This document shows, one piece after another, positions 3,975 to 20,928 of a stretch of DNA of 64,000 nucleotides. A program made the position numbers and the translations under genes. The notes under the pieces are model-generated. The model searched no databases, was not told the DNA's origin, and worked only from the letters and a program-made list of their open reading frames with translations. The stretch is from Candidatus Poribacteria bacterium (GTDB taxonomy: Bacteria; Poribacteria; WGA-4E; WGA-3G): contig OZ251518.1 in NCBI GenBank assembly GCA_965242965.1, positions 768,001 to 832,000 on the forward strand. The letters run 5' to 3'. The stretch's first letter is position 1; each line of letters begins with the position of its first letter.

Positions 3975-4570
3975 CTTCCCGGTCTCGATGCGTCACCCAA
4001 TACCGTAGCGCGAGGGCCTGTCCCTCGCGATCGTTCGATAACCCAATCACCTTCCCCATACCGTAGCGCGAGGGCCTGTCCCTCGCGAGGTTTCGGGAGA
4101 CCGCAGCATGGCGGGGGACAGGCCCCCGCCCTACGATAAAACGGAAAATGCTTGTCCTCGCGCCCAAACCCCGTCCGTATACCGTAGCGCGAGGGCCTGT
4201 CCCTCGCGATCGTTCGGTAGACCGCAGCATGGCGGGGGACAGGCCCCCGCCCTACGATAAAAAAAACGGTTCTTAGGTCCGTAGGACCTTAATGTCTATA
4301 GCACGCGCAAACGCGAAGAATCCTAAGGTCCTTTAGGTCCTTAATGTATTTTGCCAGGGCCGCGCGTGTTTTTATTAAGGACCTAAAGGCCCTTGAAAAC
4401 GTAACAACACGTTTTTCTATAGACATGTAGGTCCTACGGACCTAAAAACGCCATTCTTGCCGATGGCGATCGCGGGGGACAGGCCCCGCCCTACGATGAA
4501 ACGAAAAATCTTCTACCCCGTAGCGCGCGAACTTATCCTTTCCCGTAGGAGAGCCCTCCCGGTCTCGATG
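3975..4570. repeat. REP/BIME-like cluster (CCGTAGCGCGAGGGCCTGTCCCTCGCG hairpins plus AGGTCC-TAGGACCT module)
   Basis: Multiple direct and inverted copies are visible. The AGGTCC/CTATAG module spans about 4272-4447. Confidence 0.9.
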
Positions 4571-4624: not shown

Positions 4625-5107
4625 ATGAAAAGACAACTACGCATTTACATTGAAACATCGATTCCGAGTTTCTACTATACGTTGCGTACCGATACCGCAT
4701 CGCTTGCCATGCAGCATTGGACTCGGAAATGGTGGGCCGAATACAGTCAGGAATTCAGCCTTGTTGCGAGTCCCGTAGTGATTGCGGAACTTAGTGCCGG
4801 CACGGGAAAAATGACGCAGGCTCGGATTGAATTAGTTGAAACGCTTGAAATGTTGTCGATTCATCCGGATATTCGTCACATCGCGCAAACCTATATTGAT
4901 AGGCTAATCATGCCGCAGAATGCATCCGGTGACGCGCTTCACTTGGCAATTGCTTCGTTTCATCAGGTAGATATCCTCTTAACGTGGAATTGCCGACATC
5001 TTGCGAATGCTAACAAGTTTGGTATCATCCGGCGGATAAATCGAGAATTGGCGTTACCAACGCCGGAATTGGTGACACCGCTGAACTTTTTAGGAATGGA
5101 GGACTGA
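4625..5107 (+). CDS. PIN-domain (VapC-like) toxin
   Basis: IYIETSIPS N-terminus; DALHLAIA and LLTWNCRHLAN motifs. Confidence 0.85.
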   Translation: MKRQLRIYIETSIPSFYYTLRTDTASLAMQHWTRKWWAEYSQEFSLVASPVVIAELSAGTGKMTQARIELVETLEMLSIHPDIRHIAQTYIDRLIMPQNASGDALHLAIASFHQVDILLTWNCRHLANANKFGIIRRINRELALPTPELVTPLNFLGMED

Positions 5108-5110
5108 AAA

Positions 5111-5311
5111 ATGGAACGCAGTGAACTTGCCGAAATTCGCAGAATCCGACACGAAATTTCTGCCCAGTTTAACCACGATGTAGGGAAATTAGTTGCGCAT
5201 TACCAAGCATTTGAGCAGGAAATGCGGAAGTCTCAGAAATACAAATTCGCAGAGCCGCCATCGGAAACGCACAAACGCGTTGAAACAGAGAAAACCGAGG
5301 CGGCTGGTTAA
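5111..5311 (+). CDS. Small putative antitoxin downstream of the PIN toxin
   Basis: 66 aa with EIRRIRHEISAQFNHD, a pattern typical of partners of this PIN subfamily. GGAGG SD; starts 3 nt after the toxin stop. Confidence 0.65.
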   Translation: MERSELAEIRRIRHEISAQFNHDVGKLVAHYQAFEQEMRKSQKYKFAEPPSETHKRVETEKTEAAG

Positions 5312-5530: not shown

Positions 5531-8500
5531 ATGCCAACACTCAACATCAAACCCACACATAAAGCGATAACCGCCTATTACGCCGCCCTCGACAGGTATC
5601 GTCAACACGGCATTTCGCACGAAACCGCTGTCCGCGCCGCCTTTCAAGCACTCCTCGAAGTTGGCGCGCGACAATTGAATTGGACGCTCGTTTGTGAATA
5701 TACGCTAAACATCGGTAGGCGAGACCTCCCGGTCTCGATGCAATCGCGGGGGACAGGCCCCCGCGCTACGGTGCGTCCGGGAACGATTCGTCTTGACGGT
5801 GCCCTACTTGATGCCTACAGTCTCCCGCGCGGCACCTGGGAGGCAAAAGGCGTTCACGGAAACCTCCGCGCCGAAATCGAGAAGAAATTTGACGCGGGCT
5901 ATCCCCAGGACAACATCCTTTTCCAAACTCCCGAACGCGCGATTTTGTATCAAAACGGCCGCGAAGTAATGGACGCGGACATCACCGAACCGGCTCCCCT
6001 CGTCGCTGTCCTCAAGGCGTTCTTCGGCTATGAGCGCGCACACGCCGCCGAGTGGGAAGCCGCTGTCACCGCCTTCAGAGCCCTCGTCCCCGAACTGAAA
6101 CGGGAAGCCAAGGCACTCATTCAGACGCGCCACCGCGAGAGTGCGCGCTTCCGCAACGCCTTCGCCGACTTCCATCAACTCTGCCAAAACGCGATTCACC
6201 CCGCGCTCGCCGAATCCGCCGTGGAAGAGATGCTGCTCCAACACCTCTTGACAGAACGAACGTTTCGCACCGTCTTTGACAATCCTGACTTCGCACAGCG
6301 GAACATCATCGCACGCGAAATAGAGAAGGTTATCAACGCGCTCATTGAGAACGCATATAGCCGCGACGCATTCCTCGAAAACCTGAAGCCGTTCTATCGG
6401 GAAATCGAACGCGAAGCGGCAACTCTCGTCGATTTCTCGCAGAAACAGCATTTTCTGAATACCGTCTACGAACAGTTTTTTCAGGGAGATTCCGCCGACG
6501 TTGCCGATACGCACGGTATCGTTTATACACCGCAACCTATCGTCGATTTCATGGTGCAGAGCGTAAATCATCTCCTCAAAACCGAATTCGACAGGTCTCT
6601 TTCCGATGAAGGCGTTCACATCATCGATGCGTTTGTCGGCACCGGCAACTTCATCGTCCGCCTGATGCGCGAGATAGAACCCCTCAAACTCAACGCCAAA
6701 TACCGTTCAGAATTGTGGTGCAACGAAGTGCTGTTATTGCCCTACTACATCGCCAGTCTCAACATCGAACACGAATTTTACGAGGCCACCGGCGAATACC
6801 TCCCCTTTGAAGGCATTTCCCTCGTGGATACCTTCGATCTGGCGGAAGACCGGCAGTTGTCCCTTTTAACGCAGGAGAACACCGCTCGCGTCGAAAAGCA
6901 GAAGGCATCGCCGATGTTCGTCGTCATCGGCAATCCGCCTTACAACGTCGGGCAGGCGAATGAGCATGATCAGAATCAAAACCGAAAGTATGCGGCGTTG
7001 GATAAACTCATCCAAGAGACATACGCGAAGGATTCGTTAGCGACAAACAAAAAATCGCTCTACGATCTCTACGTGAAGGCACTCAAATGGGCATCCGAAC
7101 GCATCGGCGAGGAAGGCATCGTCGCGCTCGTCACGAACAACAGCTTCCTCGATGCAAAGGCATTTGACGGCATGCGCAAACATCTCGCCCAAGATTTCGA
7201 CCGGCTCTATATCGTCGACCTTGGCGGCAACGCGCGAAAAGACACCCTCGTCTCCGATGCCAGCGTCTTCGGCATCCAAGTCGGCGTGAGTATCAATTTC
7301 TTCGTCAAAGGGCCGTCCTCCACCGTAGCGCGGGGGCCTGTCCCCCGCGATCGTTCCGCAGAAGAACCGTCCTCCACCGTAGCGCGGGGGCCTGTCCCCC
7401 GCGATCGTTCCATCGACGATAACGCCCACATCTTCTACTTCCGCACCGACGACACCTGGAACAAAAACCAAAAATTCGACTTCCTCGCGCAAACCGAACA
7501 CATCGGCAACGTCCCCTGGCAAACGCTGCAACCCGACGCGCGACACACATGGCTCACCGAAGGACTCAACACCGAATTTTTGACCTTCATCCCGATGGGC
7601 ACCAAAACCGCCAGACGCGCCAAAGGCGACGTTGAAAATGTCATTTTCCAACTCTACAGCAACGGCGTGAACACCACTCGCGATGCATGGACTTGCAACT
7701 TTAACCGAAACACCCTCGCTGAAAACATGCAAGTGATGTATGATTTCTACAATTCGCAGTTGCGCGAATGGAACGGCACCGAAGACAAATCCGGGCTCAC
7801 GGTTGATGATTTTGTCACCTATGCCGATACGAAAATCAAATGGACAATGGATTTGAGGGCAAAGTTGAGGCGCGGGCGCGTCGCTGAATACGATGACAGC
7901 AAAATTCGGCACTCGCTTTACCGTCCCTTCACCAAAACGCATCTCTACTTTGACAGGCACTTCAATGACAGGGTGTATCGGTTCCCCTTTATTTTTCCGA
8001 CGCGAGAGACAGAAGCGGAAAATCGGGTGATTTGCGTGAGTCAATCCAATAGGCAAGATTTCGCGGTGCTAGCATCCAAATTCATCCCGAACAGTGCACT
8101 TTACATAGAGCCGCTGCAGGCTTTTCCCTTCTATGCCTACGATGAAGACGGCACGAACCGCCGAGAAAACATCACCGATTGGGCATTGCGAAACTTCCGC
8201 GCGCATTACGGCGACGATACCATCACCAAATGGGAGATTTTCCATTATACTTATGGGCTTCTGCATCATCCTGATTATCGCGAACGTTACGCCGCCGATC
8301 TCAAGCGCGACTTGCCGCACATCCCCTTCGTCAAGGATTTCTGGGCATTTGCGGATGCTGGCGCGCAACTTGCAGAACTCCACGTCAATTATGAATCGCA
8401 GCCGCAATATGAATTGACATCTATCACGAAGGAACGCGCGCTCGATTTGCGTGTGGAACGGATGAAGTTGTCGAAAGACAAGACATCGCTCATCTACAAC

Positions 8501-12280: not shown

Positions 12281-12809
12281 GGTAGAAGAGACCTCCTGGT
12301 CTCGATTTTCCCATAGCGCGGGGGACAGGCCCCCGCGTTGGCCATCGGCAAGATGCTGTCTTAGGTCCTTTAGGACCTTAATGTCTATAGAAAAACGTAT
12401 CGTTCCGTTATCAAGGTCCGTAGGACCTTAATAAAACACGCGTGGCCCTGGCAGAAACTATTAAGGACCTAAAGGACCTTAGAGCCTTTTACTTTTCGGC
12501 TGCTATAGACATTCAGGTCCTACAGACCTGAAGAGAACAAGAGACGTTTTTTCCGTAGCGCGAACGGAGGCTTTTCTCCTACCGTAGCGCGGGGGCCTGT
12601 CCCCCGCGATCGTCGTCGGTAGGGGAGCCCTCCCGGTCTCAATTTTTTCGCGATGTCTCTGTGGAGATCGAACGATGGCGAGGGGAACCCGCTCGCATGC
12701 GCGTGTGGCATGCGAGGGCCCTCGCCCTACGGTGAAGGGGGAGCTTTCTGCCGCCCTATTGCATCGAGACCGGGAGGGCTCTCCTACGGGGATTTATGAA
12801 ACCCCCTCC
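12281..12809. repeat. REP mosaic ending in an inverted terminus that overlaps the aminotransferase stop
   Basis: GTAG hairpins, AGGTCC module at about 12360-12530, terminus tttatgaaaccccctc at about 12793-12808. Confidence 0.85.
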
Positions 12810-14011
12810 GTTAATTGACCAACGTTCCGGCGCACCTTGATTGCCGCCTTAATGATGTCCTCCATATCTTCTTCGCTACCCATTAAAACGTTTTGACTCA
12901 GGGAGAGCCCTGTCTGACACACTTTCTCCGTTTCCGGGCAATGCACTTCGGCATAGTCAACGTTTTGCCCGAAAAGGTCTGATGCCAAGAACGCCTCGCG
13001 ATACATCGGCGTGGTATACCAATAGCCCATCGGGATGCCCTCGGCGCGCATGGCTTTGAGGAACGTCTCACGTGAGATGCCTTCAAACTCCTCGGAGTCG
13101 AAAATCGCTTTGTAGCCGTGACACCCGCCGCGCGTCGCGCGAGGATCGAGAGGCGTTATTTTGATGCCCGGAATCTCGCCGAACCAGCCGTCTAGCCACC
13201 GCATGTTCATGTGCCGATAGTTCGTCTCTTCCTCAAGCCGTGTCAATCGGGAGAGCAGCAGCCCCGCCTGCCATTCTGTCATGCGGAAGTTGCCGCCGAA
13301 GGGTTCTATGTTACCGAACTCGGCATCGGGAGGCGTGCGGCCACAGTTGTGCAGTGCCCAGACGCGTTCATACGCCTCCCTGTCGTTCGTCAAAATGATG
13401 CCGCCTTCTCCAGCGCATAAGTTTTTAGAAGATTGGAAACTGAAGCATCCGAAATCTCCCCAACTTCCGACACCGCGCCCGCGCCACTCGGCACCGTGCG
13501 CCTGCGCGCAATCCTCAATTATTTTCAGATTGTGACGGCGCGCGACCGCGATAAGCGCGTCCATATCCGCCGGATAGCCCGCGATGTGGACAGGCAAGAT
13601 GGCCTTCGTCTTGTCCGTTATCGCCGCCGCCACTTTGGTAACATCTAACAGGAAAGTATCCGGCGCAGTGTCCACAAACACCGGCACGGCGTGCGTCATC
13701 AGAATGGCAACAACCGTGGCTTGGAAGGTGTAGGCGGTGGTGATGACTTCGTCGCCGGGACACACACCGGCGGCTTTCAAGGCGATGTAAAGTGCGGATG
13801 TGCCGCTATTGACGCAAACGCCGTTCTGCGCGCCCTGAAATTCAGCGAATTGCCTCGCAAATTCCGGTACCATTGGGCCGCCAATACCCCACTGGCCGCT
13901 CTCATAAATGCGCGTGAATGCTTCCATATCGGCTGCATCAAGCGTGGGCCAGGGGGGAAAGGGTTTGGTGCGGACAGGTTCGCCGCCGTTTATTGCTAGT
14001 TTGGTTGCCAT
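12794..14011 (-). CDS. DegT/DnrJ/EryC1/StrS family PLP-dependent aminotransferase
   Basis: NSGTSAL, IIEDCAQAHGA, FSFQSSKN (PLP lysine), GEGG and NFRMTE motifs. Confidence 0.95.
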   Translation of the reverse strand: MATKLAINGGEPVRTKPFPPWPTLDAADMEAFTRIYESGQWGIGGPMVPEFARQFAEFQGAQNGVCVNSGTSALYIALKAAGVCPGDEVITTAYTFQATVVAILMTHAVPVFVDTAPDTFLLDVTKVAAAITDKTKAILPVHIAGYPADMDALIAVARRHNLKIIEDCAQAHGAEWRGRGVGSWGDFGCFSFQSSKNLCAGEGGIILTNDREAYERVWALHNCGRTPPDAEFGNIEPFGGNFRMTEWQAGLLLSRLTRLEEETNYRHMNMRWLDGWFGEIPGIKITPLDPRATRGGCHGYKAIFDSEEFEGISRETFLKAMRAEGIPMGYWYTTPMYREAFLASDLFGQNVDYAEVHCPETEKVCQTGLSLSQNVLMGSEEDMEDIIKAAIKVRRNVGQLTEGVS

Positions 14012-14037: not shown

Positions 14038-14445
14038 TGGCGAGGGACAGGTTTCCTGCGCCCTACGGTGAAACCGCCATGTTACCGTAGCGCGGGGGCC
14101 TGTCCCCCGCGAGTTTTCAGTAGACCGAAGCATGGCGAGGGACAGGCCCTCGCCCTACGGTATATCGGGCCTGTCCCCCGCGATTGACGAGAAAACCGCC
14201 ATGTTACCGTAGCGCGGGGGCCTGTCCCCCGCGATCTTTCAGTGGACCGAAGCCTGGCGAGGGACAGGCCCTCGCCCTACGGTATATCGGGCCTGTCCCC
14301 CGCGCGTGACAAGAAAACCGCCGCGTTACCGTAGCGCGGGGGCCTGTCCCCCGCGATCGTTGGCCTGGCGAGGGACAGGCCCTCGCCCTACGGTATATCG
14401 GATGCCCTTCGGCATGGCGAGGGACAGGCCCTCGCCCTACGGTAT
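14038..14445. repeat. GTAG-REP tandem cluster
   Basis: Repeated accgccatgttaccgtagcgcgggggcctgtcccccgcga / ggcgagggacaggccctcgccctacggtat units. Confidence 0.9.
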
Positions 14446-14486: not shown

Positions 14487-17400
14487 TTACTCATTCCGGA
14501 TGGTAAGAAGACTCGTTTCCTGTTCGGCAGAGAGACGCACGCCTCGGATCATATTCAACGAGACACCTGCGAACCGCTTCAACATCCGTTCCTGCTGCAT
14601 GTTCGCCAACTCTGTCAGACTCCCATCCGTCCGGAACAAGTGATACGGTTCAAGCACCGCTATCACCTCGGCAGTTTTCTCAGCGGCGATCGGATCGTTC
14701 GCGCAATCGCGTCTATCGCAAATTTCGCCGAGGGCGTAAATGCCGTTCCGTTTGACATCCTTATGCACATCGCCGCGCAGCTGATCTATGAGGATGTGGA
14801 TAACCGGGTCGAGTTGCGTGATAGGTAACGGCTGTTCATGCTCCCGACTCCCCATCTTCCCGAACGCCCAGTTGATGGCAATCCGGTCTGCCGCTACGCC
14901 ATACTCGATCAGTTGCTTCAAGTGCTCAAGCGCGTTCACGCTGTGGCAGCACTTGCCGATGGAATAAACGGCGTTCGGACGGACGGCTACGGGGGTATCC
15001 CGCGTAATCAGGTTAATCAGGTGCGATTCGGCGATGGGGAGCCCCGTTTTCCCGATTGCTTCCACCGCATACCGGACCACCGTTTTGATAACCTGCGGGT
15101 GCTTGTGCCCGAGTTCATCCGGGTTGCTCAGCGCAATACCGGCATCGCAAATGTCATAAAGGAGATCCGTGTCCGACGTTTTGGATGCCAAGTCACCGAG
15201 AAGCACCATCACCCGCGCCTTCCCGTAGTTGTTCACATAGGGGATATTTTCGAGGAGCGGACCGATGAACTCCTCGGCGTTCGTGGCGTGGGCGATTTTT
15301 TGACGCTGCCGGATAACCTGATCCATAATCGTCTTCTTGCGGTTCATCTGATACGTGCGCATGTAATGGGAGAAGTTTTTCTTCATCTCCGCGATTTCAT
15401 ACTGCACATCAAGCGTGGCACCCTCGCTCGGGGCACCGGGCCGGAATGAAGACGCGCCTGCTCTCGGACGAGTGCTCACTACACTGGGAGAGCGCGGTGG
15501 GGACGTGGACAGAGACGGAGACCTGGGCGCGGACATGGAACCGCGCTCGGTAGGCGTGTAAGCAGGGGGCCTGAAACTCGGCTGCTGAACGTTGCTTGCT
15601 TCAACCGCCGGACGGCTTCTCTCCACAGGTTCTTGTTCTTGTTCTTCCCCGGCAGAGCGGGTTGAATCAACGCTGACCGCGAACCGCTCATTAGGATTCG
15701 CCCTGGGCCAGCCTTCAACATTCATGATGCCGCGTTCGTCCACCTGCACTTGGAGGTAGATAGGCTCATTTTTCAGGAGTGGCCGCCGAAACCGCACGTT
15801 CCGCTCAAGGATACGGCGATTCGGGGGTTTCGTATCGTGCCGGCTGCCGAGGTAAAACGGAAGCCGCAAGGAAGGTGCCCCATCGCTGACTTGCAAGCCT
15901 TCGATAGGCTGTGGTTCCGACAACGGCAGAATCGTCCCTGCTTCCACGAGAGGTTTGACTCTCCCCCCGGCGATTTCAATGCCGATAGTGTCGTTGAGGA
16001 TGCGTGCAGGCTTGATGCCCCTGTGCAAGTCATAGTGATACACAACGGCACCGCGCGCGACAGCTTTGTCCGCGTCACCTGCGGTAATAGGTGGGAAGCC
16101 GAAGAACGTCTCCAACCGTTTTTGGATGGGATGGAGTTTCGTCATCCCGCCGTTGAGGAGGACAGCATCTACCTGCGGCATCGTTCCGAGTTTCCGTTCC
16201 GCTTTTCTTAAGACATCGAGGATAGGATAGATGATGTTATCACAGGCGGGCAGCGAGTCCAGTTGCGCGACAGAATCCAGCGTGAGTTGATTCGCGAGGA
16301 GCGGTTCAACGATGTCTTCGTATTCAGACAGCGTCAAATCGTATTGAAACACCTGATTTTCAAACGGCGTTTGCATCACCATCGTCTCAACTGTTTCCGC
16401 ATCAAAGTGCCTCATTAACTTGCTCGTCTCAATCTCGCTGCTCAGATCGATTTTGGCTTGTTCAGCGTATTCGCGGAAGTTACTCTTGAGCAGGTTCATT
16501 TGGAACTCATCCAAGTTATTGGGGAGCCTGTTCTCGTAAGCCGCGAAGAAATGGTCGGCGAGTTTCTGGTCGAAGTCATCTCCACCAATTTGCGTATACC
16601 GTGAGACAGCCAGGTCTTCGATGTTCAGGCGGAATTCGCTGTGTTCATAAGAGACTCTGTGTAAAGAGACATCTAATGTGCCGCCGCCCAGGTCAAACAC
16701 GAGGATGAGTTTCGGTATGTGGAAATTGATGAGGGTTTCCGGAATTTCCCCTTTGTCCTGTCTATTGATGAAATCGTAGAGCGCGGCGCGCGGTTCATCA
16801 AGCAAAATGTTGCGTGGGGTTCCATCGTCTTCGTGCGTTCGGAATCCGGCGAGTCGCGCGGCTTCAACCGTAGCTGCCCGCATATCAGAGTCAAAGGAGG
16901 CAGGGACGGTGATGACAACATCTTGGGGCATGAAGCCGAACAACGTCTTGGCACTCGCGGCGAGATGTGTGAGAATCTGCGATGAGATATCCGCTGCGCT
17001 ATAAGTGTTATTATCAAACTCATACTGCTTCGGTGTGCCCATTTCGCTTTTAACAGATTTCACTACCCGGCTCGTCTGCCGTCCTATCATCGTCTTTGCG
17101 TATTCGCCGACAATCGGCGGGCTGCTTTCTTTGAAATAGACGCACGAGGGTAACAACTCCTTTTTGCCCATGCCGCCCCGCTCAATCATCATGTTAATCT
17201 CCACGACTTTGGGCTCTAACTTGTTTGTCTGTGGATTGAGCGTTCCCCATCCCATGACAGAATTGGTTGTGCCTAAATCAATGCCGATGTAATAGTTCGG
17301 ATGCGCGGGTTCAGTCGGCGCGCTCGGCGCACTTGGTGCACTTGAGGCAATCGTTGGCACCGTAGCACGAGGCCCTGTTCCGCGCGAACCTTGCGGTAAA

Positions 17401-18155
17401 ATCGCCCTCGGCCCCGTCGGACGGTTAAAGGCAGGTGCCTGCATCTGTGACGTTTCTGACGTTGACGTATCCTGCGGTTGTGCAGTAGGAGGAGGTGCCT
17501 CGCGCGGTGTTACAGCCGCGTGTGGCTGAATTGTCTCTGGCGTGTCAGCAGGTGCCGCTTCAAGGTTCAAACTTGCCAGCACTTCGTGAAATTGCTCGTC
17601 GCTGATTTCCTGAACACTGCGTCTCCATGCCAATTTGATAGGGAATTCACCGGTATGCTCCCAGTTGACTTCAATAAATCGCGGACGCACGTGAGGATAG
17701 ATTACATCAGCAATAGGCAGTGATGTGCCGAGTCGCGTTATCGCCTGCGTCCAGTCGTAATAAGCGGTTTTGGTAACGGTGCCGATGCCGAGAATCTTGC
17801 TTAATCCGTGCCGTGCGATAACCTTGTCCCCTACCTGAATTTCGCGATGGAATTCCCAAACGATCTTCGCTGCCCGCGGTCCCCAGTCAAGTTGACATTC
17901 TTCGTTAAAATCGTCAAAGTGCGTCTGGAAATCTTCAAACGTCTCGTAGGTGTCTAAATGCCCTAACTGTTCACTCGGTGACACCTGTCCTCGGACTGCA
18001 GGCGGGATGCCTGCAGGCGAGATGACGGTGCCGTGTTGCGTATGGACTGCCCACCCTACGGCGATTGTTCCATGTTCTCTGTCGTGCTGCCAAGCATTCT
18101 GGAACAACTCGTCCGGTATCGTGGATTCCATAGGTGCGATAACCCAATACTTCAT
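14487..18155 (-). CDS. Multidomain Hsp70-family protein: N-terminal EVE/PUA-like domain, Hsp70 ATPase, C-terminal HEAT-like repeats
   Basis: GIDLGTTNS, ITVPASF, DEPRAA, FDLGGGTLDVS, GGDDFD, AEQAKIDLS and AVARGA. N-terminus YWVIAP...IAVGW...IQVGDKVIA...GIGTV...VNW. C-terminus VRYAVEAIGK / NAVYSIGK / GIYALGEI. Confidence 0.9.
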   Translation of the reverse strand: MKYWVIAPMESTIPDELFQNAWQHDREHGTIAVGWAVHTQHGTVISPAGIPPAVRGQVSPSEQLGHLDTYETFEDFQTHFDDFNEECQLDWGPRAAKIVWEFHREIQVGDKVIARHGLSKILGIGTVTKTAYYDWTQAITRLGTSLPIADVIYPHVRPRFIEVNWEHTGEFPIKLAWRRSVQEISDEQFHEVLASLNLEAAPADTPETIQPHAAVTPREAPPPTAQPQDTSTSETSQMQAPAFNRPTGPRAILPQGSRGTGPRATVPTIASSAPSAPSAPTEPAHPNYYIGIDLGTTNSVMGWGTLNPQTNKLEPKVVEINMMIERGGMGKKELLPSCVYFKESSPPIVGEYAKTMIGRQTSRVVKSVKSEMGTPKQYEFDNNTYSAADISSQILTHLAASAKTLFGFMPQDVVITVPASFDSDMRAATVEAARLAGFRTHEDDGTPRNILLDEPRAALYDFINRQDKGEIPETLINFHIPKLILVFDLGGGTLDVSLHRVSYEHSEFRLNIEDLAVSRYTQIGGDDFDQKLADHFFAAYENRLPNNLDEFQMNLLKSNFREYAEQAKIDLSSEIETSKLMRHFDAETVETMVMQTPFENQVFQYDLTLSEYEDIVEPLLANQLTLDSVAQLDSLPACDNIIYPILDVLRKAERKLGTMPQVDAVLLNGGMTKLHPIQKRLETFFGFPPITAGDADKAVARGAVVYHYDLHRGIKPARILNDTIGIEIAGGRVKPLVEAGTILPLSEPQPIEGLQVSDGAPSLRLPFYLGSRHDTKPPNRRILERNVRFRRPLLKNEPIYLQVQVDERGIMNVEGWPRANPNERFAVSVDSTRSAGEEQEQEPVERSRPAVEASNVQQPSFRPPAYTPTERGSMSAPRSPSLSTSPPRSPSVVSTRPRAGASSFRPGAPSEGATLDVQYEIAEMKKNFSHYMRTYQMNRKKTIMDQVIRQRQKIAHATNAEEFIGPLLENIPYVNNYGKARVMVLLGDLASKTSDTDLLYDICDAGIALSNPDELGHKHPQVIKTVVRYAVEAIGKTGLPIAESHLINLITRDTPVAVRPNAVYSIGKCCHSVNALEHLKQLIEYGVAADRIAINWAFGKMGSREHEQPLPITQLDPVIHILIDQLRGDVHKDVKRNGIYALGEICDRRDCANDPIAAEKTAEVIAVLEPYHLFRTDGSLTELANMQQERMLKRFAGVSLNMIRGVRLSAEQETSLLTIRNE

Positions 18156-19408
18156 GAGAGAACCTCCTGAACTTTTGGTTTGTTAATAACGATAGGCTCA
18201 CTCTCATCGTCGAGGAGCGCGCCTTCGTAAATCCAACCGGCGGAGATTACCTCCACCGTCTTCGTTTCCCCCGGGTCTTCCCAGTCCGAACCGATGTAGT
18301 CGTATGCATCGGATTCGCTGAGGGTTATCTCTATTTTGGACCCGACGGCCGCTTGCGGGCGAACGCCTTGCGTCTTGAGGAAACGGGTAAACATGCGAAT
18401 GGTAATGGGAATGAGTTCAAGTTCCTGCGGAACCTCTATCTCGCTTTTCCTTAAACCCTTGGCGAGTTCCTCCGCCTTGAGAAACTGGTCTAACAGGTTG
18501 CTGTGCTTCCCTGAGTTCATCTCGTGGAAGAAGGCGACGGTTGCCTCGTGTTTCGCTTCCTCACGGACGCGCACCAGTTCTTCGTTGACAGCTTCGAGCT
18601 GCTGCAGCGCGCTTTCCGCGGAGGCGCGCAAGTCGGCGTTTTCGAGGAGTGCTTCTTCAGCCGCTATCATATTTTCGTCTTCAATGAGGTCAAACGGGAT
18701 GTCGTCCTCAGGCGGAGAAGGCGAGGTACTTGGGGCGGCGCGTGATTCGGTGCGCGGCGCACTCTCACGCTGCGTCAAGGATTTGAGGAGCCCCTGTGCG
18801 TCGGTGTCGCCGAGGGCGCGCTCTTGTGCGGACTTTTTAGGCCGGAGTCCGCGCTCTATCGCGACGAGTTCGACGAGTTCATCCAAGAGTGTCTTAGACT
18901 GCTTAAAGTTCGCCAATCTCGCGGTATCGTGAAGGATGCCTTTATAGCCCACTGAGTCGGGGAGTTCGATATAAAAGGCATAGAGAATCGCCTTGGGTTC
19001 AATCGGCCGCGTATCCTGCGGTGAGAGGTGCGCGTATTCCTCTAACGGGTATGCGGCGAGGTAATTTTTCGCCTGCGCATACAATGCCCCGTAGTCGCTG
19101 TCGCCCGGGTCACCGGTTACGAATTCGGAGAGGCATTCGCCGATTTCGCCAATCTGTATCGCCCACGAAACGCGTTTCCTGGGCCCGAGATGATACTTGT
19201 CCAGTTCGTCTACGACGCGAAAAGGCAGGCGGCTCACACCCATGTCCTTTTTGAGTCGCGAGACGAGTTCGTTGGGACGGCTTTCGGGTGAATGTAATAC
19301 GGCGCGCGCCAAGTAGTAGGCGTTGAGTTGCCGCTCAACGAGGTATTTCTCTTGACTTCTACCCTTATGCCGATATTTCTTTATCAGCTCGCTGATTTTC
19401 AATTCCAC
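18152..19408 (-). CDS. Coiled-coil protein with GrpE-like C-terminal domain
   Basis: GTG start with AGAGGT SD. Long coiled coil followed by VEVISAGWIYEG...VINKPKV. ATGA overlap with the Hsp70 gene. Confidence 0.65.
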   Translation of the reverse strand: MELKISELIKKYRHKGRSQEKYLVERQLNAYYLARAVLHSPESRPNELVSRLKKDMGVSRLPFRVVDELDKYHLGPRKRVSWAIQIGEIGECLSEFVTGDPGDSDYGALYAQAKNYLAAYPLEEYAHLSPQDTRPIEPKAILYAFYIELPDSVGYKGILHDTARLANFKQSKTLLDELVELVAIERGLRPKKSAQERALGDTDAQGLLKSLTQRESAPRTESRAAPSTSPSPPEDDIPFDLIEDENMIAAEEALLENADLRASAESALQQLEAVNEELVRVREEAKHEATVAFFHEMNSGKHSNLLDQFLKAEELAKGLRKSEIEVPQELELIPITIRMFTRFLKTQGVRPQAAVGSKIEITLSESDAYDYIGSDWEDPGETKTVEVISAGWIYEGALLDDESEPIVINKPKVQEVLS

Positions 19409-19557
19409 GTAAGGTTACCTCTGTTATCTATCGGTAATATTTTAGAACGTTGGTAATTCTTTTAGACTGGACGCAGCACTAAACCCGTAAGCGCGGTTGC
19501 AAACCGAAGAATTGTGACATCTGCGTCAAGCCTATTTTCTTCATTCCGAAGCTTTCG

Positions 19558-20928
19558 CTAGAAATAGATAGGTGTGCCGTTGGTGGCTTGATACACCTCT
19601 ATATCCTTGCCGAACCTTCGGAAGGTTTCGCTATAAACGTTCACCAGAGTTCGCTGTTGCGGGTATCCGTGAACGAAAACGACTTTCTTGGGATAGACTT
19701 TCTCAATAAGCGAAAGTATCCCCTCGCTGTCCGTGTGCGCGGAGAGGCGGTATGTGTCGACATTAGCGTGGACAGGGACGCTTCTGTCATTAAGTCTGAA
19801 CCGTTCTCCTTTGCTCCGATATAACCGTTCTAGTCGCCGCCCGGGGCTTTCTTCGTCAAGGTAGCCGCTAAAGAAAATGGCATTCCTTGCATCGGGAAGC
19901 AATTTTTCGGCATAGCGTGCCGAGGCACTTTTATCAAGTAACATGCCGGAGCTGGCGATGAGAACACCGTTGAAGGTGTCAAGGTTGTCGATGAGTCCCC
20001 GCGGTGCTTTACCTACCTGATACCCGAAAACCCGCACGCCGTTATTTTGATAAATCTCACAAGCGTTTTGAGCGAGTCCATCAATGTAAATGGTAAACGG
20101 TGCCAATCGCCCAGTGTGTATGAGATGCTGCAAGATGAGGGCGAGCTCTTGGCTTCTGCCTATCGCAAACGCGGGGATAAGCACACTGCCCCTGTTATTA
20201 AGGCATCGCTCGATTTTCCGCGCGAAAATTTCGCGTTCTTCAACGACTTTTCCGGCGTAAGCACCCTCCTGATACCCGTATGTTGATTCAGCAATGAGTA
20301 AGTCAACTTCCAAATTGTCTGGAATCTGATACTTGGGCACAGTCATCTGGTCAAACGGTGTAAAGTCGCCGCTGAACAGAATATTGCCGGCATCGGACTG
20401 CACGTAAATCATGCTTGCGCCGAGGATGTGCCCTGCCGGATAGAACGTGACTTGCACAGGGGGGTATAACGCGCTTCCCTGATGTTCTAGCAGAAAAGGG
20501 TTATTCCATTCAACGCATTGGATGTTTTCTAGTGCGTGTTCGACCCGAGTTGCGTTGAATTGCTGCACCTCTCGAAAATCCTGCAAAGTTGCATCAGGCG
20601 GCGCGTCGCCCCCGGCTTGGCTCAGTTGCATCTCCATGATATCGTGCGTCGCCTGCGTCGCGTAAATCGGAACATCCGGTGCCTCGGCGACGACAGTAGG
20701 AAGTGAACCAACGTGGTCCAAGTGTCCGTGAGAGAGTAGGATGCTTTCCAGCTCCCACAAGCCGTCAAGTAGGTTTTGGGCATAAAGCGAATCGAAGCGA
20801 GGAAACGTAGAATCAGCATGCAAGCGAATGCCGGAATCCAAGAGCAGTTTCGTGTCGTTTAACCGAATAAAATAGCAGCTTGCACCGATTTCATTTCCGC
20901 CTCCGATTGGGTAAAAGAGGTTCTTCGT
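19558..20928 (-). CDS. MBL-fold beta-CASP nuclease (CPSF/RNase J superfamily), probable ACG start
   Basis: GGGNEIGASCY, LLDSG, SHGHLDH, AGHILGA, SGD, ESTYG, PAFAIGRSQE, SSGML, SAH and VHG motifs. The frame extends 29 codons upstream of the called TTG to an ACG 7 nt after GGAGG. Confidence 0.9.
   Translation of the reverse strand, partial: TKNLFYPIGGGNEIGASCYFIRLNDTKLLLDSGIRLHADSTFPRFDSLYAQNLLDGLWELESILLSHGHLDHVGSLPTVVAEAPDVPIYATQATHDIMEMQLSQAGGDAPPDATLQDFREVQQFNATRVEHALENIQCVEWNNPFLLEHQGSALYPPVQVTFYPAGHILGASMIYVQSDAGNILFSGDFTPFDQMTVPKYQIPDNLEVDLLIAESTYGYQEGAYAGKVVEEREIFARKIERCLNNRGSVLIPAFAIGRSQELALILQHLIHTGRLAPFTIYIDGLAQNACEIYQNNGVRVFGYQVGKAPRGLIDNLDTFNGVLIASSGMLLDKSASARYAEKLLPDARNAIFFSGYLDEESPGRRLERLYRSKGERFRLNDRSVPVHANVDTYRLSAHTDSEGILSLIEKVYPKKVVFVHGYPQQRTLVNVYSETFRRFGKDIEVYQATNGTPIYF

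What the first reader, a model, noticed from the sequence alone, without database searches (positions are those of the whole stretch)
17358..17390. REP-derived peptide SRGTGPRATV kept in the Hsp70 linker through synonymous changes only
Seen: intergenic REPs read tcg cga ggg aca ggc cct cgc gct acg gt (or cgg/ccc variants), which translates as SRGTGPRATV. The Hsp70 linker has tcg cgc gga aca ggg cct cgt gct acg gtg. All 4-5 differences are at third codon positions, the peptide is identical, and the hairpin stem is broken by mismatches. Inference: a domesticated repeat with selection to keep the peptide and/or remove the hairpin. It also implies the locus has resided in this REP-bearing lineage for some time.
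Basis: partly seen in the sequence, partly recalled or inferred. Interest (0 to 1): 0.7.

Follow-up and report, generated by a model that had tools for sequence, protein, structure and literature searches.

The report
Old REP repeat inside Hsp70-like linker
One copy of a very abundant small hairpin repeat became part of the floppy linker of a conserved Hsp70-like protein long ago and is slowly decaying there, which is a known kind of event with little sign that the encoded peptide has a job.

Summary
Window 17358-17387 (- strand, codons 257-266 of a 1222-aa EVE-like/Hsp70/HEAT protein) matches subfamily A of a GTAG-tagged REP at 26 of 30 bases. All 4 differences are third-position, synonymous and in the stem, and the REP hairpin no longer folds.

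The REP origin and its age are supported.
- The family has about 5000 copies here and was found only in this genus.
- The sister species G001 carries a decayed copy at the same site.
- Metagenome relatives show the 4 changes arriving one after another.

Special selection on the peptide is not supported.
- G001 changed 4 of 10 residues and another lineage 2 of 10.
- The peptide changes as fast as the rest of the disordered linker (0.6 versus 0.59 changes per column).
- 46 other diverged in-ORF REP copies are 32% synonymous, as random change predicts.

The 4:0 pattern is nominally unusual (p about 0.01) but fragile. There are weak hints of a raised synonymous rate in the stem.

One oddity is unexplained: the REP-coded TGPRA lies 13 codons from an older, non-REP TGPRA in a conserved linker motif.

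In-frame REPs are already described, and this scan had already found others in this genome.

The parts
14487..18155 (-). Gene for a 1222-aa protein. It has an EVE-like N-terminal domain, a disordered linker, an Hsp70-type ATPase, a second Ser/Pro-rich linker and a HEAT-like C-terminal part.
   Evidence: ORF and translation. Pfam HSP70 2.7e-45 over residues 290-845; HEAT_2 and EVE are only weak, below cut-off. Orthologs in 6 genomes. Whole-gene omega 0.13 against G001.
17292..17570 (-). First interdomain linker, about residues 196-288. It is Pro/Thr/Ala/Ser-rich, rich in indels and predicted to be disordered.
   Evidence: AlphaFold2 on residues 1-480 gives pLDDT 26-40 and no secondary structure over 203-288, while the N-domain scores 80-95. 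Indels among orthologs. Omega 0.48 against G001.
17358..17387 (-). REP-derived 30 bases, codons 257-266, peptide SRGTGPRATV.
   Evidence: 26 of 30 bases match the subfamily-A REP 30-mer, which has 83 identical copies in the genome. The coding variant itself is unique. Local alignment to REP scores 21, against a maximum of 15 in 300 shuffles.
17367..17382 (.). The four differences from the REP consensus, at + strand 17382, 17379, 17373 and 17367 (REP positions 6, 9, 15 and 21). All are third codon positions and all are in the stem.
   Evidence: Read. They appear stepwise in relatives: the X5 contig has REP states at 17379 and 17367, and one X1 allele has the REP state at 17367.
17362..17365 (+). 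GTAG tag of the REP, still intact. On the coding strand it reads CTAC, inside the codons GCT ACG.
   Evidence: Sequence. The tag definition is taken from passages of PMC3733652.
17394..17423 (-). Older linker motif RPTGPRAILP (residues 245-254), not REP-derived. It is the local form of a family-wide motif: TTPKAILP in other genera, KWIW..Q.PR in distant homologs.
   Evidence: Alignments. Its DNA differs from REP at 6 of the 15 bases coding TGPRA.
4002..4030 (-). Reference intergenic REP copy of subfamily A, used as the consensus.
Evidence: Hairpin of -16.3 kcal/mol.
14084..14443 (.). REP array of inverted pairs directly downstream of the gene's stop codon.
   Evidence: 8 REP hits in this span. 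Sequence.
18152..19408 (-). Upstream 418-aa gene of unknown family. Its stop overlaps the start of the Hsp70-like gene by 4 bases, and it is a conserved neighbour.
   Evidence: ORF list. No Pfam or PADLOC hit. tblastn finds it next to the ortholog in 6 of 6 loci.
12794..14011 (-). Downstream DegT/DnrJ/EryC1-type aminotransferase gene, a conserved neighbour.
   Evidence: Pfam 9e-99. Present next to the ortholog in 6 of 6 loci.

Best explanation
One unit of a GTAG-tagged REP (subfamily A) became part of the coding sequence of the disordered linker between the N-terminal domain and the Hsp70 ATPase. It reads in the stop-free frame that gives SRGTGPRATV.

This happened before G000 and its sister species G001 split. 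It was either after the split from G002, or earlier with later decay in G002. The copy was tolerated because the linker is floppy and evolves fast.

Since then it has decayed like the rest of the linker. In the G000 line four third-position changes arrived one after another and broke the hairpin. In sister lines the peptide itself changed.

The all-synonymous look in G000 comes from moderate linker-level constraint (omega about 0.4-0.5) and small numbers. Selection or mutation pressure against the hairpin may have helped. The peptide is not a domesticated functional module.

Shown: REP origin, age, loss of the hairpin, stepwise order of the changes, and no extra conservation. Inferred: neutrality of the peptide, and the way the unit got in.
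For: REP origin:
- 26 of 30 bases match, and the local score of 21 exceeds all 300 shuffles.

Age:
- G001 has a copy at the same codons matching 19 of 29 bases (score 12, reached by 5 of 300 shuffles) and shares the C at REP position 6.
- The REP family was found in 3 of 3 genus genomes and 0 of 38 other relatives.
- The flanking genes are the same in 6 of 6 loci.

Stepwise decay:
- The X5 contig (6681 nt) has 2 differences from REP.
- One X1 allele has 3.
- G000, the X8 contig and the other X1 allele have 4.

No special constraint:
- Amino-acid changes per column among 5 clade members are 0.6 for the REP peptide, 0.59 for linker 196-256 and 0.09 for Hsp70.
- G001 changed 4 of 10 residues and P0004 2 of 10.
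- At the linker's own dN, 1.85 non-synonymous changes are expected on the G000 branch, so P(0) = 0.16.

Genome-wide control:
- 46 other diverged in-ORF copies, 35 of them with a Pfam domain in the same frame, give 62 synonymous and 130 non-synonymous differences.
- This is 32%, against 31% expected at random.

Disorder:
- pLDDT is 26-40 over residues 203-288.
Against: - The 4:0 split differs from the other coding copies (62:130, Fisher p = 0.012), and none of those 46 is all-synonymous.
- In the recent slice G000 versus X5, both REP differences are third-position, while outside the REP 12 of 14 listed differences are first or second position. My hand hypergeometric for this is 0.05. Third-position differences are 2 of 10 in the REP against 2 of 157 elsewhere (p = 0.018).
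- pS in the REP codons against G001 is 0.59, versus 0.33 gene-wide.
- GPRA is kept in 4 of 5 clade proteins.
- The REP-coded TGPRA sits 13 codons from one of only 2 non-REP TGPRA in 1.6 million ORF residues.
- There is no clean empty site. G002 has an unrelated 33-base stretch in place of the 30 bases, so insertion as such is not shown.
Confidence: 0.55

Rival explanations
1. Selection, or hairpin-linked mutation, removes the hairpin while the protein reading is kept. A stable REP hairpin, or a site still recognised by a REP transposase, is harmful inside a translated gene. Stem-breaking changes are therefore favoured, and in this frame the cheapest ones are third positions, which pair with each other across the stem.
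For: - All 4 changes are in the stem. They hit 4 of the 6 stem third positions and 0 of the 4 non-stem third positions (read).
- The hairpin is lost.
- Third-position differences between G000 and X5 are 2 of 10 in the REP against 2 of 157 outside (p = 0.018).
- Fourfold sites differing from G001 are 4 of 6 in the REP against 142 of 506 gene-wide (p = 0.058).
- Only 1 of the 4 changes goes to a commoner codon, so codon-usage tuning does not explain them.
Against: - The numbers are tiny and the tests were chosen after seeing the data.
- Given third positions only, the chance that all 4 fall in the stem is 15/210 = 0.07 (hand calculation).
- One change (position 9) hit a pair that was already broken, and one only makes a G-U pair.
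- Genome-wide, in-ORF copies put 130 of 196 differences (66%) in the stem, against 1222 of 2048 (60%) for other copies and 61.5% at random.
- The GTAG tag is untouched.
Confidence: 0.25
2. The peptide is kept by selection because it duplicates a working linker motif. The REP frame gives R-x-TGPRA-x-x, followed by a Pro from the flank. This copies the conserved RPTGPRAILP 13 codons upstream, so this insertion added a second copy of a short linear motif and came under purifying selection.
For: - 4 synonymous and 0 non-synonymous changes on the G000 path.
- Fisher p = 0.012 against the other coding copies.
- TGPRA occurs 60 times in 1.6 million ORF residues, 58 times on REP-like DNA and 2 times on other DNA, one of which is this upstream motif.
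- Of 118 in-ORF REP copies, only this one has a match of 5 or more residues to a non-REP flank. The two other hits are truncated REP remnants.
- GPRA is kept in P0001-P0004.
- The upstream motif belongs to a family-wide conserved element.
Against: - G001 reads LGTEPRTTS, so the motif is lost there, and P0004 has 2 changes.
- The rate of change equals the rest of the linker, 0.6 against 0.59 per column.
- P(0 non-synonymous) on the G000 branch is 0.16 at the linker's own rate.
- P0006 and G002 do without a recognisable second motif.
- The whole region is predicted to be disordered with no contact to either domain.
- The adjacency was noticed after the fact.
Confidence: 0.15
3. Chance resemblance: the linker only happens to look like the REP.
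For: The linker is GC-rich and Pro/Gly/Arg/Ala-rich, as the REP frame is.
Against: - 26 of 30 bases match.
- 0 matches to the REP pattern in 100 shuffles of the window.
- Local score 21, against a maximum of 15 in 300 shuffles.
- Relatives are closer to the consensus in steps.
Confidence: 0.01

Closest known systems
Intragenic GTAG-tagged REPs (Di Nocera, De Gregorio and Rocco 2013, PMC3733652; passages read)
   Same: A short GTAG-tagged stem-loop repeat, very abundant and mostly intergenic, with some units lying in frame inside genes that encode known proteins. Those authors argue that such inserts are mostly neutral and sit in modular or tolerant parts of the protein.
   Different: This is a single unit, and it is old. 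It is shared in decayed form by a sister species. The hairpin is already lost, and the order of the four changes can be read from relatives. The host is a sponge-associated lineage not covered in that paper. I did not open their list of intragenic REPs (Additional file 3).
Rickettsia palindromic elements (RPE) inside ORFs, including the ancient RPE-7-like insert in PheT of all Rickettsia (Blanc et al. 2007, PMC1779305, passages read). Ogata 2000 and Claverie and Ogata 2003 were seen only as citations there.
   Same: A selfish palindromic repeat is inserted in frame, kept in working proteins, and retained over the divergence of species while it decays.
   Different: RPEs are 100-150 bp and of another family. 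Here the unit is 30 bases, carries a GTAG tag and sits in a disordered linker rather than on a folded domain surface.
REPIN/RAYT systems
   Same: The intergenic copies stand as inverted pairs in clusters. The genome has Y1-transposase (PF01797) matches.
   Different: I did not test whether those transposase genes are flanked by this REP. The coding copy is a singlet.

Membership tests
GTAG-tagged REP | Short GC-rich stem-loop | tested here: met
   An intergenic copy folds at -16.3 kcal/mol, z -3.0, and 0 of 200 shuffles fold as well. The coding copy itself no longer folds this way (-10.7 kcal/mol, z +0.65), so it is a decayed member.
GTAG-tagged REP | GTAG tetranucleotide directly at one end of the stem | tested here: met
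   Read. GTAG abuts the stem in intergenic copies and stands at + strand 17362-17365 in the coding copy.
GTAG-tagged REP | High copy number, mostly between genes, restricted to a lineage | tested here: met
   4977 to 5275 REP-like sites in 5.7 Mb. Only 154 pass my in-ORF filter. Found in 3 of 3 genomes of the genus and 0 of 38 other relatives.
GTAG-tagged REP | Cognate REP-associated tyrosine transposase (RAYT) flanked by the repeat | tested here: inconclusive
   Two PF01797 matches in the genome, one with two in-frame TGA. Their flanks were not examined.
In-frame coding palindromic repeat (intragenic REP / RPE kind) | The repeat lies in frame inside an intact, conserved gene | tested here: met
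   Open 1222-aa frame. Orthologs in 6 genomes with no internal stops. Omega 0.13.
In-frame coding palindromic repeat (intragenic REP / RPE kind) | Orthologs without the insert (empty site) | tested here: inconclusive
   P0008-P0010 lack about 22 residues here. The nearest outgroups have a stretch of similar length with no REP likeness: G002 has 33 bases scoring 7 against a null mean of 7.9.
In-frame coding palindromic repeat (intragenic REP / RPE kind) | Sits in a tolerant part of the protein (loop, surface or linker) | tested here: met
   Predicted disordered linker with pLDDT 26-40. This is a prediction only.
Domesticated (exapted) repeat-coded peptide | The peptide is more conserved than its surroundings | tested here: not met
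   0.6 changes per column against 0.59 for linker 196-256. REP codons against G001 have pN 0.27, versus 0.16 for the rest of the linker.
Domesticated (exapted) repeat-coded peptide | Kept across the lineages that carry it | tested here: not met
   Unchanged in P0001-P0003. 2 of 10 residues changed in P0004 and 4 of 10 in P0005/G001.
Domesticated (exapted) repeat-coded peptide | A function that depends on the peptide | not testable with these tools
   Needs expression and mutation of the protein.

The most novel reading that the evidence does not exclude
A selfish REP unit was kept in this linker because its stop-free frame happens to encode a second copy of the protein's own conserved linker motif (TGPRA followed by two aliphatic or hydroxyl residues and Pro). 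In the G000 line it is now held by purifying selection on the peptide, while selection erases the hairpin through the only silent route, the third positions that pair with each other. That would be repeat-to-motif exaptation caught in progress.
Probability: 0.12. Interest if true: 0.6.

Novelty: new member of a known kind. Interest (0 to 1): 0.3.

Why it matters
It is a clean, datable example of what happens to a REP after it lands in a coding region. The copy is shared by sister species. Its four changes can be ordered from natural variants. A genome-wide control of 46 other in-ORF copies shows that such peptides drift as if unconstrained.

This supports the view that in-frame REPs are mostly tolerated passengers in flexible protein parts. 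It also warns against reading selection from one all-synonymous copy.

The one point that could raise its value is the closeness to an identical, older motif. If that is causal, it would show repeats seeding short linear motifs.

Tried and rejected
- Codon-usage tuning as the cause of the four changes is rejected. Only CGA to CGC goes to a commoner codon; the other three go to rarer ones.
- A second REP in opposite orientation in the linker was not found (score 9, null mean 8.0).
- The upstream TGPRA is not an older REP copy. Genera without the REP family have the homologous TTPKAILP, and its Arg codon AGG is one step from their Lys AAG.
- REP likeness of the G002 and G004 stretches was not found (scores 7 and 8 against null means 7.9 and 7.5).
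- Known defence system: PADLOC gave only weak hits (best 2.1e-06 over 75 residues).
- Run X7 gave no cover when laid, so it says nothing.
- Unstratified hairpin test: coding copies have fewer Watson-Crick stem pairs (Mann-Whitney p = 0.004). This is confounded by mismatch number, and the stratified differences are small.
- Literature search with 'Rickettsia palindromic / in-frame / synonymous' returned mostly unrelated papers. Search one search gave nothing on synonymous decay of in-frame REPs. These two narrow searches do not show that the point is absent from print.
- DNA for P0004 and P0006 could not be obtained, because the look-up tool for encoding contigs is closed. Their REP codons are known only as protein.
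- My first in-ORF filter (88 copies) missed the Hsp70 copy itself. I replaced it with the looser filter.
Full report
**Observation**

The - strand of window 17358-17387 codes SRGTGPRATV. These are residues 257-266 of a 1222-aa ORF at 14487-18155 (-). It has 52 matches in the window at up to 3 mismatches, 8 of them exact, and none in 100 shuffles.

Against subfamily A the coding copy differs at 4 of 30 bases: + strand 17382, 17379, 17373 and 17367, which are REP positions 6, 9, 15 and 21. Against the cgg/ccc variant it differs at 5. All differences are third codon positions, all are synonymous and all lie in the 8-bp stem.

In this frame all ten codons are fourfold degenerate, and third positions pair with third positions across the stem (read). 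An intergenic copy folds at -16.3 kcal/mol (z -3.0; 0 of 200 shuffles fold as well). The coding copy does not form the hairpin (-10.7 kcal/mol, z +0.65). The GTAG tag is intact at 17362-17365.

The coding 30-mer is unique in the genome. The nearest copies are 1 at 3 mismatches and 84 at 4 mismatches, of which 83 are the same subfamily-A 30-mer.

**The repeat family**

The genome (5.70 Mb, 54% G+C, 2 contigs) holds 4977 sites within 8 mismatches of three 29-base consensus forms. It holds 5275 sites within 7 mismatches of 33 common 26-base cores. Intergenic copies stand as inverted pairs in clusters.

A 28-base pattern at up to 1 mismatch gave 1935 hits in G000, 264 in G001 and 266 in G002. It gave none in 38 other relatives of 12 genera. 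The genome has two PF01797 (Y1 transposase) matches, one of them with two in-frame TGA. I did not look at their flanks.

Earlier notes of this scan call the organism a sponge-associated Poribacteria lineage and the repeats GTAG-tagged REPs. They had already found in-frame copies in two other genes of this genome. The runs that hold this gene are mostly sponge metagenomes.

**The gene**

Pfam gives HSP70 (2.7e-45, residues 290-845). HEAT_2 and EVE hits are weak and below cut-off.

A model of residues 1-480, built on 24 aligned sequences (mean pLDDT 61.5), has a confident N-domain with pLDDT 80-95. Residues 203-288 have pLDDT 26-40 and no secondary structure. The ATPase part was cut in this model and is poorly modelled.

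The upstream 418-aa gene and the downstream DegT-type gene flank the ortholog in 6 of 6 loci, spanning four genera. This is a stable chromosomal locus. PADLOC gave only weak hits.

**Orthologs**

In the tree of 11 proteins, built on 1068 columns with the linkers left out, P0001-P0005 form a clade with support 100/99. The order is P0005 (the G001 type) first, then P0004, then P0003, then P0001 with P0002. P0006 and P0007 (the G002 type) lie outside, and P0008-P0010 further out.

At the REP codons the proteins read as follows:

| Protein | Reading at the REP codons |
|---|---|
| P0001, P0002, P0003 | SRGTGPRATV |
| P0004 | ARGAGPRATV |
| P0005 / G001 | SLGTEPRTTS |
| P0006 | a shorter R-QPSASVAT stretch |
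| P0007 / G002 | DRQHKPSVRA |
| P0008-P0010 | lack about 22 residues here |

G001's DNA matches REP at 19 of 29 bases, with 5 third-position and 5 other changes. It shares the C at position 6 with G000. Its local score is 12, reached by 5 of 300 shuffles.

G002 has 33 bases in place of the 30, with no likeness to REP (score 7, null mean 7.9). The flanks align well. So the copy is at least as old as the G000-G001 split, where gene-wide dS is 0.44. A clean empty site was not found. Insertion with a nearby deletion, replacement, or older insertion with full decay in G002 all remain possible.

**Stepwise series**

Contigs from public runs were laid on 17150-17650.
- The X8 contig (1184 nt, P0002-like) has the same four differences as G000.
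- X1 carries two alleles over 17295-17397. One is like G000 at 17367, and one has the REP state there.
- The X5 contig (6681 nt) shares P0003's Gly-to-Ser change before the REP. It has REP states at both 17379 and 17367, which leaves two differences.

Together with G001 this gives the order: position 6, then 15, then 9, then 21. The last is still polymorphic. This fits descent from a consensus-like REP. These are contigs, not reads, and polarity rests on parsimony.

**Tests of selection**

- Four of four random changes on fourfold sites has chance 0.008 (hand calculation).
- The 4:0 split differs from the other coding copies (62:130, Fisher p = 0.012).
- Between G000 and X5, third-position differences are 2 of 10 in the REP against 2 of 157 outside (p = 0.018). 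Outside the REP, 12 of the 14 listed differences are first or second position. 16 of the contig's 17 differences are listed.
- pS against G001 is 0.59 in the REP codons, against 0.33 gene-wide. Fourfold sites differ at 4 of 6 against 142 of 506 (p = 0.058).

- Of 154 in-ORF copies found with a hexamer coding-potential filter, 60 have 1-6 mismatches. Without the Hsp70 copy their differences fall 60, 76 and 69 on codon positions 1, 2 and 3. That is 67 synonymous and 138 non-synonymous, or 32.7%, with a random expectation of 30.6%.
- Of the 46 copies with 2-6 mismatches, 35 have a Pfam domain in the same frame at E up to 1e-5. Those 35 give 47 synonymous to 99 non-synonymous, and the 11 without a domain give 15 to 31. 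None is all-synonymous.
- The expected number of all-synonymous copies with 4 or more differences among the 46 is 0.13.
- Linker omega against G001 is 0.48. At that rate 1.85 non-synonymous changes are expected on the G000 branch, so P(0) is 0.16.
- Changes per column among the five clade proteins are 0.6 for the REP peptide, 0.59 for linker 196-256, 0.32 for 267-285, 0.24 for the N-domain and 0.09 for Hsp70.
- Stem share of differences is 66% in in-ORF copies (130 of 196) and 60% in others (1222 of 2048), with 61.5% expected at random.
- Only one of the four changes goes to a commoner codon. This removes codon tuning as a cause but does not point to any other force.

**Unexplained**

The REP-coded R-G-TGPRA-T-V, followed by Pro, lies 13 codons after RPTGPRAILP. 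That upstream motif is old. Other genera have TTPKAILP and distant homologs have KWIW..Q.PR at the same place. Its Arg codon is one step from their Lys codon.

In 1.6 million residues of long ORFs, TGPRA occurs 60 times, 58 of them on REP-like DNA. One of the 2 others is this motif. Of 118 in-ORF REP copies, only this one matches its non-REP flank over 5 or more residues. Two further hits are truncated REP remnants.

I noticed this after the fact. It is the basis of the most novel reading.

**Comparison with what is known**

In-frame GTAG REPs in genes for known proteins, argued to be mostly neutral, are described in PMC3733652 (passages read). In-frame RPEs, including an ancient insert kept in PheT of all Rickettsia, are described in PMC1779305 (passages read). 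This case is a new member of that kind, with a dated stepwise decay.

**Limits**

- Gene calling was my own crude filter.
- Ancestral states were taken as the nearest common REP variant.
- Several tests were chosen after seeing the data.
- The DNA of the P0004 and P0006 lineages was not available.
- I did not open the supplementary list of intragenic REPs in PMC3733652.

Noticed in passing
window 14487-20841 (-), with loci L002-L006: Conserved gene trio. It comprises a 418-aa protein with no Pfam or PADLOC hit, whose stop overlaps by 4 bases the start of the EVE-like/Hsp70/HEAT protein, with a beta-CASP metallo-beta-lactamase RNase-like gene upstream and a DegT aminotransferase downstream. Homologs of the Hsp70-like protein are many in metagenomes. 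One (P0016) carries a precomputed RAMP domain, PF03787. The function of the trio is unknown.
   Followed up: partly
window 17394-17423 (-): The linker motif RPTGPRAILP is the local form of a motif conserved across the whole protein family just before the ATPase: TTPKAILPQ..R in other genera and KWIW.Q.PR in distant homologs. It may be a functional element of the linker.
   Followed up: partly
window 17300-17345 (-): The Ala-Pro-Ser repeat after the REP codons (SSAPSAPSAP) varies in length among close relatives. There is a 9-base insertion in one X1 allele, 3 extra residues in P0002 and 6 fewer in G001 and P0004.
   Followed up: no
window 15440-15620 (-), residues 846-905: The second linker, between the Hsp70 and HEAT parts, changes even faster than the first. 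It shows 0.87 changes per column among five close proteins, and pN 0.30 against G001.
   Followed up: no
window 5744-5772 and 7322-7404; also G000:C1:613351-613704, 754100 and others: 58 REP copies with no mismatch lie inside long stop-free frames whose flanks have coding potential. Several sit in similar frames of about 1100 codons that recur around the genome, and one sits in a 7081-codon frame. I did not check whether these are true in-gene inserts or frames that run across REP arrays between genes.
   Followed up: no
G000:C1:3125391-3125627 and 3147583-3147918: Two Y1-transposase (PF01797) matches, one with two in-frame TGA. They are candidates for the transposase that moves the REPs.
   Followed up: no
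genome-wide: In-ORF REP copies favour two of the six frames. 64 of 154 read TVARGPVPRD-like (opposite orientation) and 35 of 154 read SRGTGPRATV-like. The other four frames hold 55.
   Followed up: no
window 17150-17650 against the X5 contig: Outside the REP codons, 12 of 14 listed differences between G000 and this close relative are at first or second codon positions, and there are three in-frame indels. The linker's recent change is therefore almost all at the protein level.
   Followed up: partly
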